Positions 24,808 through 47,802 of a stretch of DNA of 64,000 nt are shown here, piece by piece (within the stretch, counting starts at the first letter, position 1; every line of letters starts with the position of its first letter). The notes beneath the pieces were generated by a model. It did no database searches. It was not told the origin of the DNA and saw nothing but the letters and a program-made list of their open reading frames with translations. The DNA lies in sequence record OR896837.1; one strand, 5' to 3'. The translations under genes were made by a program, and so were the position numbers. The stretch is from Escherichia phage vB_Eco_mar004NP2.

Positions 24808-24890
24808 TATTTATTTTCCTTTTTGTTTATCAATTTATGAAGTATATTATACGAGAATTTGAAGCGTTTAGCAAATGAATTTTTTAAAAA

Positions 24891-42789: not shown

Positions 42790-43083
42790 ATGACCAAAGC
42801 TGAAATTATCGCACAATGTGAAAAATTTGGTGAGTTTTATCTTCATTACGAGAAACTTCGTCAGAAAGGAACCACGTACCTTCAGGGTACGATGGAATTT
42901 GATCCAGCCCAAGATAAATATCTGGCTGAGCGTATTAAACGTGAACGTATTCGTAAAGCGAAAGATGATGAGATCCTTGTCTTCTCTCGTACTAATGATA
43001 GCTTCCGTTTTATTCCTGTCGAGAAAGTCCGTCGTGTGACTAGCCTCCAATCAGAGTTAGATCGTGCTTCTCCAGTAGGCTGA
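42790..43083 (+). CDS. hypothetical protein (97 aa)
   Basis: ORF. Confidence 0.45.
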   Translation: MTKAEIIAQCEKFGEFYLHYEKLRQKGTTYLQGTMEFDPAQDKYLAERIKRERIRKAKDDEILVFSRTNDSFRFIPVEKVRRVTSLQSELDRASPVG

Positions 43084-43095
43084 TAAGAAACCAAT

Positions 43096-43118
43096 TAGCC
43101 CCTATATGGGGCTTTTTG
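43096..43118 (+). terminator. rho-independent terminator
   Basis: AGCCCC-TATA-TGGGGCT hairpin + TTTTTGTG. Confidence 0.55.
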
Positions 43119-43136
43119 TGTATTTGGGATATGTAA

Positions 43137-43445
43137 ATGAGCGAACAGGTAAATCAAAACTATGAAGGACACGTTGATGACCAGTCCATCATACTCTGGG
43201 AGAAGGAGGGAGAACAAGTAAGATTAACAGTATCTGAATTTCGTGGGAATCTATACATGGGTATTCGTTACTGGCTTCTTGATATTAATGATGAATGGTT
43301 TCCAACGAAATCTGGCTTCTCTTTTCCTTACACCCTAGAAACAACATCGCAGCTTTTCTATGCGTTTACACAGATTCTTAGCGAATCTGAGGTTTTACAT
43401 GAAGTACAGAAACGAGCTGAAGAACTCAAAGCCAAGAATGCCTAG
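43137..43445 (+). CDS. hypothetical protein (102 aa)
   Basis: ORF. Confidence 0.45.
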   Translation: MSEQVNQNYEGHVDDQSIILWEKEGEQVRLTVSEFRGNLYMGIRYWLLDINDEWFPTKSGFSFPYTLETTSQLFYAFTQILSESEVLHEVQKRAEELKAKNA

Positions 43446-43472
43446 TTCTTGGCTTTTTCTTTATAAATGTAT

Positions 43473-43501
43473 TTGCTTTCAACTCAGTTTTGTTATATAA
43501 T
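43473..43501 (+). promoter_or_regulatory. sigma70-like promoter
   Basis: TTGCTT, 17 bp, TATAAT. Confidence 0.55.
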
Positions 43502-43532
43502 ATTTATATAAATTAATGAGAGATACAAATAA

Positions 43533-44504
43533 ATGACTAATGTAAAAGACTTTATTAAACGTTGCCAAGAAGCATATTACCAGGGAATGTCTTTAATCTC
43601 TGACGAAGAATATGATCGTCTGATTAAAAGATTTCCGTTAGAAGAAGAGATCGGGCCTAAGGGCGATATTCCACATCTGTATCGTATGTATTCTTTACAG
43701 AAAGTTTATTATAATCGTGGAGATAAACCTCCGTTTAACCCATTAGGTCAGGTAGAAACTGATAAGTTAGATGGTTGTGCGATTTCTCTGTTATATATTA
43801 ATGGCGAATTTGTTCAAGCATTAACTCGTGGTAATGGCATTCTAGGGAATGATGTCACAAGCAACGTAAGATTGCTGAACATCCCTAAAAAGATTTCCCA
43901 AAAAGTACCTACTCAAATCACTGGTGAAGTTCTAATTACAAAAGAAGTAGAAAATAAACGTAACTTTGCCTCTGGTGCTATTAACCTCAAGGATAGAGAT
44001 GATTTCGTACAACGTATCGGGGAAGGTGGTTTAATCTTCGTTGCATATGGTATCCAGTGTTCTGCTGAATCTGTAGGTATTACAGAAGCGTATTTAAAAG
44101 ATATGCTTTGGCTGGAGAATGAGAACTTCTTAACAGTTGTTAATGTGCGTTCCTTCTTTAAATGGATTCCGACGGACGGTAAAGTTGTTCGTATCAATGA
44201 CAATAACAAATTCTTCCGAGAAGGCTGGACTAATAAATTCCCTCGTGGAGCATTCGCTATTAAAGAGGATGAAGAAGGCGAAATTACAACTCTTACTAAA
44301 GTTGAATGGCAGGTAGGGGCTTCTGGTAAAGTAACTCCAGTTGGTTATTTTGAACCGGTAATTATTGATGATGCTACAATTGTTAAAGCGACTCTTAATA
44401 ACGTTGATTATATTAACTCTCTCGATCTAGAGATCGGTTGCCAGATTCGAGTGATTCGTGCTGGTGGTGTAATCCCGTGTATAGTAGAGCGAGTATACGA
44501 TTAA
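43533..44504 (+). CDS. NAD-dependent DNA ligase, adenylation-domain subunit (split ligase, part A)
   Basis: KLDG adenylation motif and OB-like region; C-terminal Zn/HhH/BRCT modules are in the next gene. Confidence 0.7.
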   Translation: MTNVKDFIKRCQEAYYQGMSLISDEEYDRLIKRFPLEEEIGPKGDIPHLYRMYSLQKVYYNRGDKPPFNPLGQVETDKLDGCAISLLYINGEFVQALTRGNGILGNDVTSNVRLLNIPKKISQKVPTQITGEVLITKEVENKRNFASGAINLKDRDDFVQRIGEGGLIFVAYGIQCSAESVGITEAYLKDMLWLENENFLTVVNVRSFFKWIPTDGKVVRINDNNKFFREGWTNKFPRGAFAIKEDEEGEITTLTKVEWQVGASGKVTPVGYFEPVIIDDATIVKATLNNVDYINSLDLEIGCQIRVIRAGGVIPCIVERVYD

Positions 44505-44554
44505 TACATAACCCTTTGCTACCCATCTACCATATCGGAATTATAAAGTGGTTA

Positions 44555-44583
44555 TTGACATTTTCGCCGCTTAGGTATATACT
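44555..44583 (+). promoter_or_regulatory. sigma70-like promoter in ligase intergenic region
   Basis: TTGACA, 17 bp, TATACT. Confidence 0.5.
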
Positions 44584-44646
44584 ATTATCATTCAGTTGAG
44601 GGATAGAAAGTTATGGCGAGGGTAAGCAAAGTTAGTTAAAATTGTA

Positions 44647-44676
44647 GTTGCTAAATGCTTAAATACTTGCTATAAT
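44647..44676 (+). promoter_or_regulatory. sigma70-like promoter
   Basis: TTGCTA, 18 bp, TATAAT. Confidence 0.45.
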
Positions 44677-44703
44677 ATTTATATAAATTGATAAGGAAGA
44701 AAT

Positions 44704-45486
44704 TTGATGAAAATCGAAATTCCAACACAATGTCCCTCTTGTGGTTCTAAGCTAGATCTTGTCAACGGACAATTATTCTGTCGGAATAAGTCCAACTGTC
44801 CAGCGCAATCAAGTAAGTTAATTGAGAACTTCTGTTCAAAAATGAAGTTAAAGGGCTTTGGCCCAAAAACTATTGAGAAGCTGGAGCTGACGAAGATTTC
44901 AGAACTATTTTACCTAACCGAAGAAGATTTGGTTAGAGCCGTGGGTAGCAAGGTTGCCGCTAAGTTAATTAGCGAATTAAATACTAAAGTTCGCGGAGAC
45001 ATTGACTTTGGTTCAGTTCTCGGTTCTTTAGGAATCCCTCTAATTGGAGAGGTTGCAGCAAAGAAATTATCCCAAAATTACACTAGCTTCCATGATGTGA
45101 AGGCTGACGGCAAGGCTGGAGAAAATTACAAAGCCTGGCTAAATTCCCCACAAGGCAAGGATGTTATCGAACTACCGTGGAAATTTTCAACTGGTATTAA
45201 GGGCACTAAAGCTGACGTCATCATTACAGATGAATTAGTTGCCCAGCCAAATGGAATCGCGGTATGTATTACCGGATCTTTGCAAGATTTTGCAAATCGA
45301 ACGGATGCAACAAACTATTTAGAAGGTCTAGGGTATACGGTTAAGAAATCCGTTACTAAAGACGTCAAATACCTAATCTGTGAGGATGAATCAAAACGTT
45401 CTTCCTCATCTTATAAGAAAGCCGAAACGAATGGGATAGAAATCCTGTCGATTAAAGAACTATTGGAGAAAAATAATAATGTCTAA
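44704..45486 (+). CDS. NAD-dependent DNA ligase, Zn-finger/HhH/BRCT subunit (split ligase, part B)
   Basis: CPSCGSKL...CRNKSNCPAQ zinc finger, helix-hairpin-helix-like GFGPKT, C-terminal BRCT-like region. Confidence 0.7.
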   Translation: MMKIEIPTQCPSCGSKLDLVNGQLFCRNKSNCPAQSSKLIENFCSKMKLKGFGPKTIEKLELTKISELFYLTEEDLVRAVGSKVAAKLISELNTKVRGDIDFGSVLGSLGIPLIGEVAAKKLSQNYTSFHDVKADGKAGENYKAWLNSPQGKDVIELPWKFSTGIKGTKADVIITDELVAQPNGIAVCITGSLQDFANRTDATNYLEGLGYTVKKSVTKDVKYLICEDESKRSSSSYKKAETNGIEILSIKELLEKNNNV

Positions 45487-46246
45487 ACTGAACTGGAACG
45501 TAGAAGGTGTAACCGAGTCTCTGAAAGCAAAAGCCACTGCTCTGGGTGTTGCTGTAATCTCTCAAGAACAAGTAGCTGCTATCGCTGCTGAACTGGCTGC
45601 TGAAACTGGCAAAGACGTTACCGCTCGCTCTGTTGGCTCTAAGCTGCGTAAAGAAGGTTTTGAAGTACAAAAAGCTAACGAAGTACAGAAATCCCCGTGG
45701 ACTCCTGAGCAGGAAGCTGAACTGGTTGATTTCCTGAACGCTCATGCTGGTCAGTATACCTATGCTGAAATCGCTGCTGCTGTAGCTGGTGGTCAATTTG
45801 GTGCTAAGCAGGTACAGGGTAAGATCCTGAGTCTGGAAATGACCGCCTCTGTTAAACCAACTGAAAAAGCTGCTGCTGTTCGTTCCTTCACTCCTGATGA
45901 AGAAACCGATTTTGTTAATCAGGTTGTTGCTGGGGCTACTATTGAAGCTATCGCTGCTCACTTCGGTCGTAATATCAAGCAGATCCGTGGTAAAGCTCTG
46001 AGCCTGCTTCGTGAAGGTCGTATCGCTGCTATGCCGGTACAGGAAACTTCAAGTGCTAAAACTCGTGAAGATCTGTTAGAAGGTCTGGATCTGGCTAACA
46101 TGACTGTTGCTGAGATCGCTGAGAAAACTGGTAAATCTGAGCGCGGTGTTAAATCTATGCTGTCTCGTCGTGGTCTAGTTGCTAAGGACTATGATGGTGC
46201 TGCTAAGCGTGCTAAACTGGATGCAAAAGCTGCGGCTGCTGAATAA
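45479..46246 (+). CDS. Ala-rich protein with four internal repeats, putative abundant DNA-binding protein
   Basis: Repeated ~50-aa units ending in basic helices; codon usage strongly biased to host-preferred codons unlike neighbours. Confidence 0.45.
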   Translation: MSKLNWNVEGVTESLKAKATALGVAVISQEQVAAIAAELAAETGKDVTARSVGSKLRKEGFEVQKANEVQKSPWTPEQEAELVDFLNAHAGQYTYAEIAAAVAGGQFGAKQVQGKILSLEMTASVKPTEKAAAVRSFTPDEETDFVNQVVAGATIEAIAAHFGRNIKQIRGKALSLLREGRIAAMPVQETSSAKTREDLLEGLDLANMTVAEIAEKTGKSERGVKSMLSRRGLVAKDYDGAAKRAKLDAKAAAAE

Positions 46247-46264
46247 TCTGGTAAATTAAACCTA

Positions 46265-46297
46265 AGGGGAGGGGGCTATGCTCCTTCCCCTTTTTTG
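46265..46297 (+). terminator. rho-independent terminator
   Basis: GGGGAGGGGG...CCTTCCCC hairpin + TTTTTT. Confidence 0.5.
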
Positions 46298-46329
46298 CAT
46301 TTAGAAGGCACGAAAGCGTGCAAAGGAGA

Positions 46330-47802
46330 ATGACCTTGTTTAACGTGCAAGCTGTAGTGTTGAAGATGCTTCTTGCTTCTGAACAGAAGCAAATAGCATT
46401 GGAAACATTCTCAAAACTGCATAAAGATCATTTTAATGACGCTTTCTCCTCAATTTACCAAGCCGTCCAGAATTATTATAAAAAATATAACACAATGCCG
46501 TCCATTGACGCACTTATGCTTGAAGCTAATAGGAACGCCCGCCTTTCTCAAGCTCTAGTCGTCTTAGCTAACACTCAAATTCCAGAAGTGAGCATGGAAC
46601 AGGCACTTGAAGTCCTAGAGGCCGAATATACACAAGATTTATTCCTAAAGCTTCTAGAAACAGATGTGCTTCAAGATTTAACAATGCTGGATCAGGGAGA
46701 AATTCTCAACCGAGTTGCCTCCCTTCACTTAAAATTAGAAGAGAAAGTAACGAATACTGGAAAAGTATTCAACGCAGATAACATGCGTATTTTCCAGAGA
46801 GAAGAAGATACCAAACTGAACTTAATCGCTCTTGGTATTTGTAATGAGTTCGACGCTCAAATTGGTTTAGCTCGCACAGAAACGTTACTGCTTGGTGGTT
46901 GGCGTGGTACTGGTAAATCCATTATCTGTTCAAACATACAGGTTCAGCAATATTTGAATGGAGATATTGCTCCATACTTCTCAATTGAGATGAAAGAACA
47001 TGAAGTATTTAGACGTAATCTAGCCATGTTAGCTGGTGTATCAGCATTAGCAATGCGTAATAATACTCTAGAAGGTGCAGCTCTGTTGAGATTGGCCAGA
47101 ACTAGAGCTAGGATGTTCAACGGGGGTGAGGAGCTTTTCGATAACTTCGTTAAACAGTATACAATGGCTAAGATGAGTGATTTCTACGATATGGAGAGTA
47201 AGCTAATAGAAGGATATGAGCTACATACTCCTATGATTATTGTTTATGACCCTGAGCTGTCCATTACAACAGTTGACGTAGAATTAAATAAATTAGTTGC
47301 TAGATACGGAGATAAAGTTACAGTAGCTTTACTGGACTATATTAACCAAACCCGACTTCCAGACTCTAAAACCATTGATATGTATGACTGGAAAGAACAG
47401 ATGGTTGTCAGCTCGTCTTTCAAATCTATCTGCCAGAAACATAACGTGGCTGGTGTAGCTCCTTACCAGATTGATCAAGATGGTAGAACACGTATGTCAA
47501 AGGGGATTCTTGATTCCGCAGACATGGCTGCTAATCTTAATGCTGCAAAAGCTGATAATGGTCAAGGTGCTATTATGTTTGACTTCGTTAAGACCCGTTC
47601 TTCTGATAGCGTGAAGTTTATGCCTAAAATGAACTGGGAAACCCTGCGGATGGATAACACTATCAACCTAGCAATGGAAGATATATCTCAAATGGAAGCT
47701 GAGTTCGTTATCCCTATTGAGAAGGATAAGCCGGCTCAATCTAAACGTGCTAAGAAAGACAAAGCTGAAAATTCAACAGGTGAACAGGCCAGCGATATAT
47801 GA
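46330..47802 (+). CDS. RecA-fold replicative helicase-like ATPase (DnaB-like)
   Basis: Walker A GGWRGTGKS; directly upstream of and coupled to the primase; start uncertain (ATG 46330 or TTG 46336). Confidence 0.5.
   Translation: MTLFNVQAVVLKMLLASEQKQIALETFSKLHKDHFNDAFSSIYQAVQNYYKKYNTMPSIDALMLEANRNARLSQALVVLANTQIPEVSMEQALEVLEAEYTQDLFLKLLETDVLQDLTMLDQGEILNRVASLHLKLEEKVTNTGKVFNADNMRIFQREEDTKLNLIALGICNEFDAQIGLARTETLLLGGWRGTGKSIICSNIQVQQYLNGDIAPYFSIEMKEHEVFRRNLAMLAGVSALAMRNNTLEGAALLRLARTRARMFNGGEELFDNFVKQYTMAKMSDFYDMESKLIEGYELHTPMIIVYDPELSITTVDVELNKLVARYGDKVTVALLDYINQTRLPDSKTIDMYDWKEQMVVSSSFKSICQKHNVAGVAPYQIDQDGRTRMSKGILDSADMAANLNAAKADNGQGAIMFDFVKTRSSDSVKFMPKMNWETLRMDNTINLAMEDISQMEAEFVIPIEKDKPAQSKRAKKDKAENSTGEQASDI

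What the first reader, a model, noticed from the sequence alone, without database searches (positions are those of the whole stretch)
43533..45486. NAD-dependent ligase encoded as two genes separated by a promoter-containing 200-bp spacer
The adenylation domain and the Zn-finger/HhH/BRCT modules are in separate ORFs, 199 bp apart, with two sigma70-like promoters and a hairpin between them. The second half can therefore be transcribed independently. This is an unusual architecture for a ligase.
Basis: partly seen in the sequence, partly recalled or inferred. Interest (0 to 1): 0.4.

Follow-up and report, generated by a model that had tools for sequence, protein, structure and literature searches.

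The report
Phage T5's known two-gene DNA ligase
This is the two-gene (ligA/ligB) NAD-dependent DNA ligase of T5-like phages, with the two named T5 promoters P-K28b and P-K28a in the gap; it is real and strongly conserved, but already annotated in the T5 reference genome and solved as a two-chain structure for a related phage.

Summary
ORF 43533-44504 encodes the NAD-binding, adenylation and OB part of a LigA-type ligase. ORF 44707-45486 encodes the Zn-finger, HhH and BRCT part. Between them lies a 202-nt non-coding gap (199 nt from the upstream TTG) holding two sigma70 promoters.

The window is a T5-like phage. The gap is 100% identical to phage T5, whose GenBank record names the genes ligA (T5.116) and ligB (T5.117) and the two promoters P-K 28b and P-K 28a. 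More than 400 phage records carry the same arrangement. PDB entries 9hu3 and 9i5i hold both chains of the Providencia-phage homologue. The architecture is therefore already known.

What I added:
- All 98 related loci where both halves are visible are split.
- A strong promoter sits about 31 nt before ligB in 49 of 55 distinct gaps.
- The gap is the most conserved stretch of the locus.
- The site just after the ligA stop codon collects inserted genes in some relatives, including a GIY-YIG homing endonuclease.
- Single-chain relatives of 555-578 aa show the break lies in the OB/Zn-finger linker.

This is not a frameshifted gene.

The parts
43428..43456 (+). Terminator-like hairpin ending the upstream transcription unit
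   Evidence: 12-bp stem followed by a T-run. The corresponding site is annotated as a terminator in phage Lindwurm.
43473..43501 (+). Early-type promoter of ligA (TTGCTT-17-TATAAT, then ATTTATATAAATT)
   Evidence: T5 annotates a promoter at 65284-65358, which is window 43453-43527. It shares a 25-nt repeat with the ligB promoter (D1).
43533..44504 (+). ligA: ligase subunit A (domain Ia, nucleotidyltransferase with KxDG at K78, OB fold), 323 aa
   Evidence: Matches LigA profile TIGR00575 as far as position 378. 100% identical to the SPLA5b protein.
44505..44706 (+). 202-nt non-coding gap between ligA and ligB
   Evidence: Nucleotide diversity 0.010, against 0.148 and 0.088 at codon position 3 of ligA and ligB. 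100% identical to T5.
44535..44609 (+). Promoter P-K28b (core 44555-44583: TTGACA-17-TATACT)
   Evidence: T5 feature 'promoter P-K 28b' at 66366-66440, offset -21831. Conserved in all Demerecviridae genera sampled.
44615..44674 (+). Local hairpin or dyad whose 3' arm overlaps the -35 of P-K28a; function unknown
44628..44702 (+). Promoter P-K28a (core 44648-44676: TTGCTA-17-TGcTATAAT), the generic T5 early-promoter type
   Evidence: T5 feature 'promoter P-K 28a' at 66459-66533. No variable site among 33 relatives.
44693..44699 (+). Ribosome-binding site AAGGAAG of ligB
   Evidence: Sequence. An RBS is annotated at the same place in Lindwurm.
44707..45486 (+). ligB: ligase subunit B (Cys4 Zn finger, HhH, BRCT), 259 aa
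   Evidence: Matches LigA profile TIGR00575 positions 388-651.
45479..46246 (+). D5 DNA-binding protein gene, overlapping the ligB stop by 8 nt (ATGTCTAA); same operon
46264..46292 (+). Terminator-like hairpin after D5, the likely end of the ligA-ligB-D5 unit
   Evidence: A terminator is annotated here in Lindwurm.

Best explanation
This is the two-subunit NAD-dependent DNA ligase of a T5-like phage. Subunit A carries the NAD-binding domain Ia, the adenylation (nucleotidyltransferase) domain and the OB fold. Subunit B carries the Zn finger, the HhH DNA-binding domain and BRCT. The break falls in the short variable linker that joins OB and Zn finger in single-chain ligases.

The two polypeptides are inferred to assemble without a covalent link into a LigA-like clamp that seals nicks in replicating, and naturally nicked, T5 DNA.

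The 202-nt gap is a promoter module. The tandem T5 promoters P-K28b and P-K28a start an operon of ligB and D5. ligA has its own early promoter, and no terminator follows it. So ligB and D5 would be transcribed from three promoters and ligA from one.

Shown here: domain content, colinearity with LigA, the split in all relatives, promoter identity with T5, and conservation. Inferred: assembly, activity, and relative expression.
For: Identity of the locus. It is 99.9% identical to Salmonella phage SPLA5b, and 447 phage records match. The gap is 100% identical to T5. T5 record AY543070 names ligA (T5.116), ligB (T5.117), P-K 28b and P-K 28a. PMC3632103 cites the T5 subunits as AAU05253 and AAU05254.

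Domains. A ends at LigA profile position 378 and B begins at 388. Against E. coli LigA (2owo), A residues 214-320 align to 284-390 and B residues 3-127 to 402-534.

Heterodimer. PDB 9hu3 and 9i5i contain chain A 'DNA ligase (NAD(+))' (E 2e-103) and chain B 'DNA ligase subunit B' (E 2e-80). The 159 aligned chain-B residues queried match Providencia phages PSTCR5 and PR1 at 100%.

Selection. Diversity at codon position 3 far exceeds positions 1 and 2 in both genes.

Distribution of the split. All 98 loci with both halves visible are split, with A directly upstream of B. About 98 stand-alone B-type cluster representatives exist.

Break point. Single-chain relatives of 555-578 aa are colinear with A+B; the break lies in a variable linker of 4-18 residues.

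Promoters. 49 of 55 distinct gaps hold a promoter matching at least 10 of 12 consensus positions within 130 nt of ligB, against 1 of 330 coding controls. The -10 element ends a median of 31 nt from the start codon. No terminator lies in the gap.
Against: No biochemical paper on the T5-type ligase was found in the held library, so ligase activity and A-B association for this phage rest on homology to a deposited structure.

Each half alone scores below NCBI's LigA equivalog cut-off (171 and 110 bits against 444).

Promoter use in vivo is taken from a GenBank annotation. The underlying 1985 paper could not be read.

The near-invariance of the 64 nt between the two promoter cores is only partly explained by overlapping promoter footprints.
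Confidence: 0.9

Rival explanations
1. The two ORFs are one ligase gene broken by a frameshift, sequencing error or recent pseudogenisation, and the gap has no function.
For: None beyond the fact that cellular LigA is a single chain.
Against: The 202-nt gap has no LigA coding potential. The two halves tile the LigA profile with nothing missing. The same gap occurs in hundreds of independent genomes. Both halves are under purifying selection, and the gap is more conserved than the coding sequence. A two-chain structure exists for a homologue.
Confidence: 0.01
2. The split was made by a mobile element, a free-standing homing endonuclease gene inserting in the OB/Zn linker, as in the genes-in-pieces cases of T4-like phages. 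The present gap is then what remains after loss of that gene.
For: A GIY-YIG endonuclease gene sits exactly at the ligA stop codon in Salmonella phages SP3 and RUS_R2. Next to it, a stretch of about 180 nt at the 3' end of ligA (about 28 nt short of the stop) is only 75% identical to the window. The last roughly 12 codons of that gene are homologous to window 44510-44546. Other genes are inserted at the same point: NADAR in a Proteus phage, and a DprA-like gene plus an unknown gene in Vibrio phage pVp-1.
Against: The endonuclease is present in only 3 phage records (two phages), whereas the split is family-wide and extends to distant metagenomic relatives. So it looks like a late arrival. Gaps of 57-107 nt in distant relatives hold only a promoter, and in the shortest the -35 overlaps the ligA stop. 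No target-site duplication or endonuclease remnant was recognised in the gap, and no ORF of 40 aa or more lies there.
Confidence: 0.08
3. The two products do not work only as a 1:1 ligase. Subunit B, made from two extra strong promoters together with D5, is in excess or differently timed. It would have a second role, for example as a nick- or DNA-binding or BRCT scaffold protein, while A is a minimal adenylating module.
For: There are three promoters for ligB against one for ligA, with no terminator between them. ligB overlaps D5 by 8 nt, suggesting translational coupling. A promoter before ligB is near-universal.
Against: A and B are always adjacent and co-inherited. They were deposited together in one PDB entry. 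No expression or interaction data were found. The promoters may exist mainly to drive D5.
Confidence: 0.12

Closest known systems
Phage T5 ligA (T5.116) / ligB (T5.117) with promoters P-K28b and P-K28a (GenBank AY543070; proteins AAU05253 and AAU05254 in AY692264)
   Same: The same genes, the same order (ligA, P-K28b, P-K28a, ligB, D5), and a gap that is 100% identical over 231 nt.
   Different: Nothing of substance. The window is another member of the same phage group, closest to Salmonella phage SPLA5b at 99.9%.
Two-chain NAD-dependent ligase of Providencia phage PSTCR5 / vB_PreS_PR1 (PDB 9hu3, 9i5i)
   Same: The same two-subunit organisation. Full-length matches to both chains, E 2e-103 and 2e-80. 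The same tandem promoter layout lies before ligB (L038 and L040).
   Different: Protein identity is about 52-55%. The gap is 192 nt with a different sequence between the promoters.
Cellular single-chain LigA (E. coli 2owo, Thermus filiformis 1v9p)
   Same: The same domain order Ia, NTase, OB, Zn, HhH, BRCT. The KxDG lysine, the domain Ia YY..ISDxEYDxL motif and the Cys4 finger are all present.
   Different: It is one polypeptide of about 670 aa. The phage enzyme totals 582 aa in two chains, cut at about E. coli residues 393-400, and has shorter NTase and HhH regions.
Compact single-chain phage-type LigA (555-578 aa; P0031, P0063, P0084, P0090, P0101, P0102, P0112)
   Same: Colinear with A+B at 31-44% identity, with the same compact size.
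   Different: The OB and Zn finger are joined by a linker of 4-18 residues instead of stop, gap and start. These relatives are scattered among split forms in a crude tree.
'Genes in pieces' of T4-like phages (Aeromonas phage Aeh1 nrdA split by the mobE endonuclease gene; split DNA polymerase gp43). Cited from my own knowledge, not checked here.
   Same: An essential DNA-metabolism enzyme is encoded as two adjacent genes whose products reassemble. A homing endonuclease gene occupies the break in some relatives.
   Different: Here the break normally holds promoters, not an endonuclease gene. The endonuclease is rare and looks secondary.

Membership tests
NAD-dependent DNA ligase (LigA family) | Nucleotidyltransferase domain with the motif I lysine (KxDG) | tested here: met
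   Pfam PF01653 E 1e-22. DKLDG at residues 77-81 aligns with HKVDG of T. filiformis LigA.
NAD-dependent DNA ligase (LigA family) | N-terminal domain Ia that binds the NMN moiety of NAD+ (YY...D.EYD motif) | tested here: inconclusive
   AYYQGMSLISDEEYDRLI aligns with YYVLADPEISDAEYDRLL of 1v9p, but that stretch alone is not significant (i-Evalue 380). It is well conserved against the 9hu3 chain A homologue. NAD use was not tested.
NAD-dependent DNA ligase (LigA family) | OB-fold domain after the NTase domain | tested here: met
   Pfam PF03120 E 4e-22, residues 252-321. Aligns to E. coli LigA residues 284-390.
NAD-dependent DNA ligase (LigA family) | Cys4 zinc finger, HhH domain and C-terminal BRCT | tested here: met
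   C9, C12, C25 and C31 are invariant in 31 homologues. BRCT PF00533 E 9e-8. HHH_2 scores 26.6 bits, just under its cut-off of 27. Aligns to E. coli LigA 402-534 and 585-666.
NAD-dependent DNA ligase (LigA family) | All domains on one polypeptide (NCBIfam equivalog TIGR00575, cut-off 444 bits) | tested here: not met
   Two polypeptides score 171 and 110 bits, covering profile positions up to 378 and 388-651. It is a split variant of the family, not the canonical equivalog.
T5-type two-subunit ligase (ligA/ligB of Demerecviridae) | Adjacent ligA and ligB genes in that order, followed by D5, in a T5-like genome | tested here: met
T5-type two-subunit ligase (ligA/ligB of Demerecviridae) | Tandem promoters P-K28b and P-K28a in the gap | tested here: met
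   100% sequence identity to the annotated T5 features. Their activity in this phage was not tested.
T5-type two-subunit ligase (ligA/ligB of Demerecviridae) | Physical A-B complex with nick-sealing activity | not testable with these tools
   Only indirect: both chains of a homologue with about 52-55% identity are co-deposited in PDB 9hu3 and 9i5i.
Gene split by a free-standing homing endonuclease ('genes in pieces') | Endonuclease gene, or a recognisable remnant of one, between the two halves | tested here: not met
   No ORF of 40 aa or more lies in the gap. A GIY-YIG gene is present only in SP3 and RUS_R2. Only the last roughly 12 codons of that gene resemble window 44510-44546.

The most novel reading that the evidence does not exclude
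The fission is not a neutral accident. It is mechanistically tied to an internal promoter: across this whole phage clade the OB/Zn-finger linker serves as a transcription-unit boundary. The DNA-binding half (B) would then be co-expressed at high level, or with different timing, with D5 and the downstream replication genes, uncoupled from the catalytic half (A). A conserved dyad over the -35 of P-K28a would add a further, unknown layer of control.
Probability: 0.2. Interest if true: 0.35.

Novelty: already known. Interest (0 to 1): 0.1.

Why it matters
As it stands, the finding matters little. The split ligase and both promoters are in the T5 reference annotation, and a homologous two-chain structure is in the PDB.

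The comparative results give modest extra value. They show a natural, ancient and stable domain fission of an essential replication enzyme, always accompanied by a promoter. The locus is also a ready-made system for two questions: why phages break enzymes at domain linkers, and whether subunit stoichiometry or timing is being tuned.

Tried and rejected
- Rfam scan of 43000-46500 at E up to 1: nothing in the gap.
- Whole-gap RNA fold: z -0.5.
- Terminator scan: none in the gap.
- Mini-ORF 44613-44639 (MARVSKVS*) behind an SD-like GAGGGA downstream of P-K28b. Rejected as a conserved peptide: the few substitutions are non-synonymous, and other genera have unrelated or no mini-ORFs.
- Long-range inverted repeat 44514-44527 / 44618-44631. 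It is not conserved outside tequintaviruses, and its 5' arm is lost in SP3.
- Insertions seen as two-piece hits. They lie upstream of ligA, not in the gap.
- Pfam on the small intervening or upstream ORFs of relatives: no hits.
- Literature searches for a biochemical or structural paper on the split ligase, for P-K28a/b and for essentiality data: none found.
- Gentz and Bujard 1985 is not held. The promoter alignment figure of PMC7472727 is held only as an image.
- NJ tree of B domains: too poorly resolved to count fission or fusion events.

Full report
**What is there.** ORF 43533-44504 (+) encodes 323 aa and ORF 44704/44707-45486 (+) encodes 260 or 259 aa.
- The first ORF has the NAD-ligase adenylation and OB domains. 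The second has HhH and BRCT.
- Four Cys residues (C9, C12, C25, C31) are invariant in 31 homologues and form the Zn finger.
- Against NCBI's LigA model TIGR00575, the first protein ends at profile position 378 and the second starts at 388. Together they tile one LigA with nothing missing.
- Against E. coli LigA, the break maps to about residues 393-400, the OB/Zn-finger junction.
- The gap is 199 nt to the TTG, or 202 nt to the ATG that relatives annotate. That ATG has an AAGGAAG ribosome site 7 nt upstream.
- The only two + strand promoter-like sites in 3.5 kb both lie in the gap: TTGACA-17-TATACT at 44555-44583 and TTGCTA-17-TGcTATAAT at 44648-44676.

**Where it comes from.** The region is 99.9% identical to Salmonella phage SPLA5b. 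It matches 447 phage records, nearly all Tequintavirus or other Demerecviridae. [quoted passage not shown]
- Window 44490-44720 is 100% identical to phage T5.
- T5 record AY543070 annotates ligA (T5.116), ligB (T5.117) and D5. In the gap it annotates 'promoter P-K 28b' and 'promoter P-K 28a'. With an offset of -21831 these are window 44535-44609 and 44628-44702.
- These names come from the classical functional selection of T5 promoters (Gentz and Bujard 1985, PMID 3900050). The reference is confirmed through, but the text is not held. That the names originate there is my own knowledge.
- PMC3632103 lists the T5 subunits as AAU05253 and AAU05254. PMC4319617 mentions A and B subunits in phage Stitch.

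**Is it a working two-subunit enzyme?**
- PDB entries 9hu3 and 9i5i contain a chain 'DNA ligase (NAD(+))' (E 2e-103 to subunit A) and a chain 'DNA ligase subunit B' (E 2e-80 to subunit B).
- The 159 aligned chain-B residues I queried are 100% identical to Providencia phages PSTCR5 and vB_PreS_PR1. Those phages are about 52-55% identical to the window proteins.
- Among 33 tequintavirus loci, nucleotide diversity at codon positions 1, 2 and 3 is 0.028, 0.011 and 0.148 for ligA. For ligB it is 0.032, 0.015 and 0.088. Both genes are therefore under purifying selection.
- I found no biochemical paper in the held library. Association and activity in this phage are inferred.

**How general the split is.**
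- In 98 of 98 loci where both halves are visible, A lies directly upstream of B and the two are separate genes. Two further loci are cut off before A.
- These loci cover Tequintavirus, Klebsiella, Providencia, Proteus, Vibrio and Aeromonas phages, plus metagenomic relatives down to 36% identity.
- An exhaustive search with subunit B gave about 98 stand-alone B-type representatives of roughly 200-270 aa among the hits that cover most of B. It also gave about a dozen single-chain relatives of only 555-578 aa.
- The single-chain relatives are colinear with A+B. They carry a variable linker of 4-18 residues where the window has stop, gap and start.
- In a crude NJ tree the fused compact forms are scattered among split forms. 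The tree is too weak to count events.

**What the gap does.**
- A promoter before ligB is the constant feature. 49 of 55 distinct gaps hold a sigma70 match of at least 10/12 (17 of them 12/12) within 130 nt of ligB, against 1 of 330 equal-length coding controls. The -10 element ends a median of 31 nt before the start codon.
- In the shortest gaps (57-58 nt) the -35 hexamer overlaps the ligA stop codon.
- The tandem layout is P-K28b type, then about 60 nt, then P-K28a type. It is kept in every Demerecviridae genus sampled, even where extra genes sit after ligA.
- P-K28a belongs to the generic T5 early-promoter class, with about 24 copies in the window. P-K28b (TTGACA...TATACT, without the ATAAATT box) is unique in the window.
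- PMC7472727 states that T5 early promoters share an ATATT discriminator and that late ones differ there. Which class P-K28b belongs to could not be checked.
- No terminator lies in the gap. ligA has its own promoter at 43473-43501, behind a terminator-like hairpin. ligB overlaps D5 by 8 nt, and a terminator-like hairpin follows D5.
- The likely unit is therefore P-ligA-[P-K28b][P-K28a]-ligB-D5-T, with more transcription over ligB and D5 than over ligA. This is inferred.

**Conservation.**
- The gap has diversity 0.010 and 9% variable columns. Codon position 3 has 68% variable columns in ligA and 41% in ligB.
- 44540-44760 is the longest near-invariant stretch in the 5.7-kb locus.
- Two back-to-back full promoter footprints plus the translation start explain most of this.
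- In more distant genera only the promoters stay similar, while the middle segment diverges but keeps its length.
- A local fold at 44615-44674 (z about -3.4) places its 3' arm on the -35 of P-K28a. A comparable dyad occurs in 7 of 10 genera, with different sequences and up to 10 bp in Proteus phage L006 and in locus L045. It occurs in only 3 of 21 other early-type promoters in the window, one of which is P-K28a itself. This is suggestive and unexplained.

**Mobile-element question.**
- In Salmonella phages SP3 and RUS_R2, a 213-aa GIY-YIG endonuclease gene starts at the ligA stop codon. Next to it, a stretch of about 180 nt at the 3' end of ligA (about 28 nt short of the stop) is only 75% identical to the window. 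This pattern is expected of homing.
- The endonuclease ORF ends inside sequence shared with the window (…PSTISEL*, window 44510-44546).
- Other relatives carry different genes at the same point: NADAR in a Proteus phage, and a DprA-like gene plus an unknown gene in Vibrio phage pVp-1.
- The position just after the ligA stop is therefore an insertion hot spot. The endonuclease is found in only 3 phage records, representing two phages, so it is a late arrival and not the cause of the ancient split.

**Verdict.** The architecture is nevertheless the long-annotated T5 ligA/ligB locus with its named promoters, and a homologous two-chain structure has been deposited. Novelty: already known. Interest is low. 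The only open angle is whether fission and internal promoter are functionally coupled.

Noticed in passing
L034 1699-2340 (Salmonella phage SP3); L102 1501-2142 (phage vB_Sen_SG_WM_RUS_R2): A 213-aa GIY-YIG homing-endonuclease gene is inserted exactly at the ligA stop codon. Next to it, a stretch of about 180 nt at the 3' end of ligA is only 75% identical to the window, while the rest of the gap is about 99% identical. This looks like a co-conversion tract. The gene is found in only 3 phage records.
   Followed up: yes
L041 1653-2309; L007 1365-1586 and 1817-2344; L006 2149-2316: Other cargo sits between ligA and the promoter module in relatives. A Proteus phage has a NADAR-domain gene (Pfam E 2e-31). 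Vibrio phage pVp-1 has a phrog_23191 ORF and a DprA-like phrog_768 gene. Proteus phage M4H10_20 has a 55-aa ORF. The site right after the ligA stop is an insertion hot spot.
   Followed up: partly
window 44540-44760 and 45410-45510: These are near-invariant stretches among 33 tequintaviruses (diversity 0.000-0.005). The first spans the gap and the first 18 codons of ligB, including synonymous sites. The second spans the ligB/D5 overlap. Both are more conserved than non-synonymous positions nearby.
   Followed up: partly
window 44615-44674: A hairpin or dyad has its 3' arm covering the -35 hexamer of P-K28a (AGCAA...TTGCT). Analogous stems with different sequences occur in Proteus, Vibrio and other genera, up to 10 bp. 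They are rare at other early-type promoters of the window. Function unknown.
   Followed up: partly
window 44505-44546: After the ligA stop the frame stays open for 13 codons (YITLCYPSTISEL*). This tail is homologous to the C-terminal codons of the SP3 GIY-YIG gene (...TPSTISEL*). It could be an insertion that borrows the resident sequence, or a deletion remnant. Unresolved.
   Followed up: partly
window 44613-44639: An eight-codon mini-ORF (MARVSKVS*) lies 8 nt after an SD-like GAGGGA, just downstream of P-K28b. Short ORFs occur at the same place in Providencia and Proteus phages, but the peptides are not conserved.
   Followed up: partly
L003 1632-1820 (Klebsiella phage KPP2018); L004 1633-1905 (Escherichia phage HK6): Some close relatives carry an extra small ORF (62 or 90 aa, no Pfam hit) between the ligA promoter region and ligA. 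This explains the two-piece BLAST hits. The window lacks it.
   Followed up: partly
window, whole length (for example 5575, 6083, 15777, 20835, 24874 on the - strand; 34678, 43473, 44648 on the + strand): There are about 24 copies of one promoter template, TTGCT(A/T)-17-TATAAT followed by ATATT/ATTTA and ATAAATT. This is the T5 early-promoter class. The copy at 24874 (-) looks like the classical P_H207 as I recall its sequence; I did not verify this.
   Followed up: no
P0031, P0063, P0084, P0090, P0101, P0102, P0112 (no genomic context): Single-chain relatives of the T5-type ligase, only 555-578 aa long, are scattered among split forms in a crude tree. The split or fused state may have changed more than once.
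   Followed up: partly
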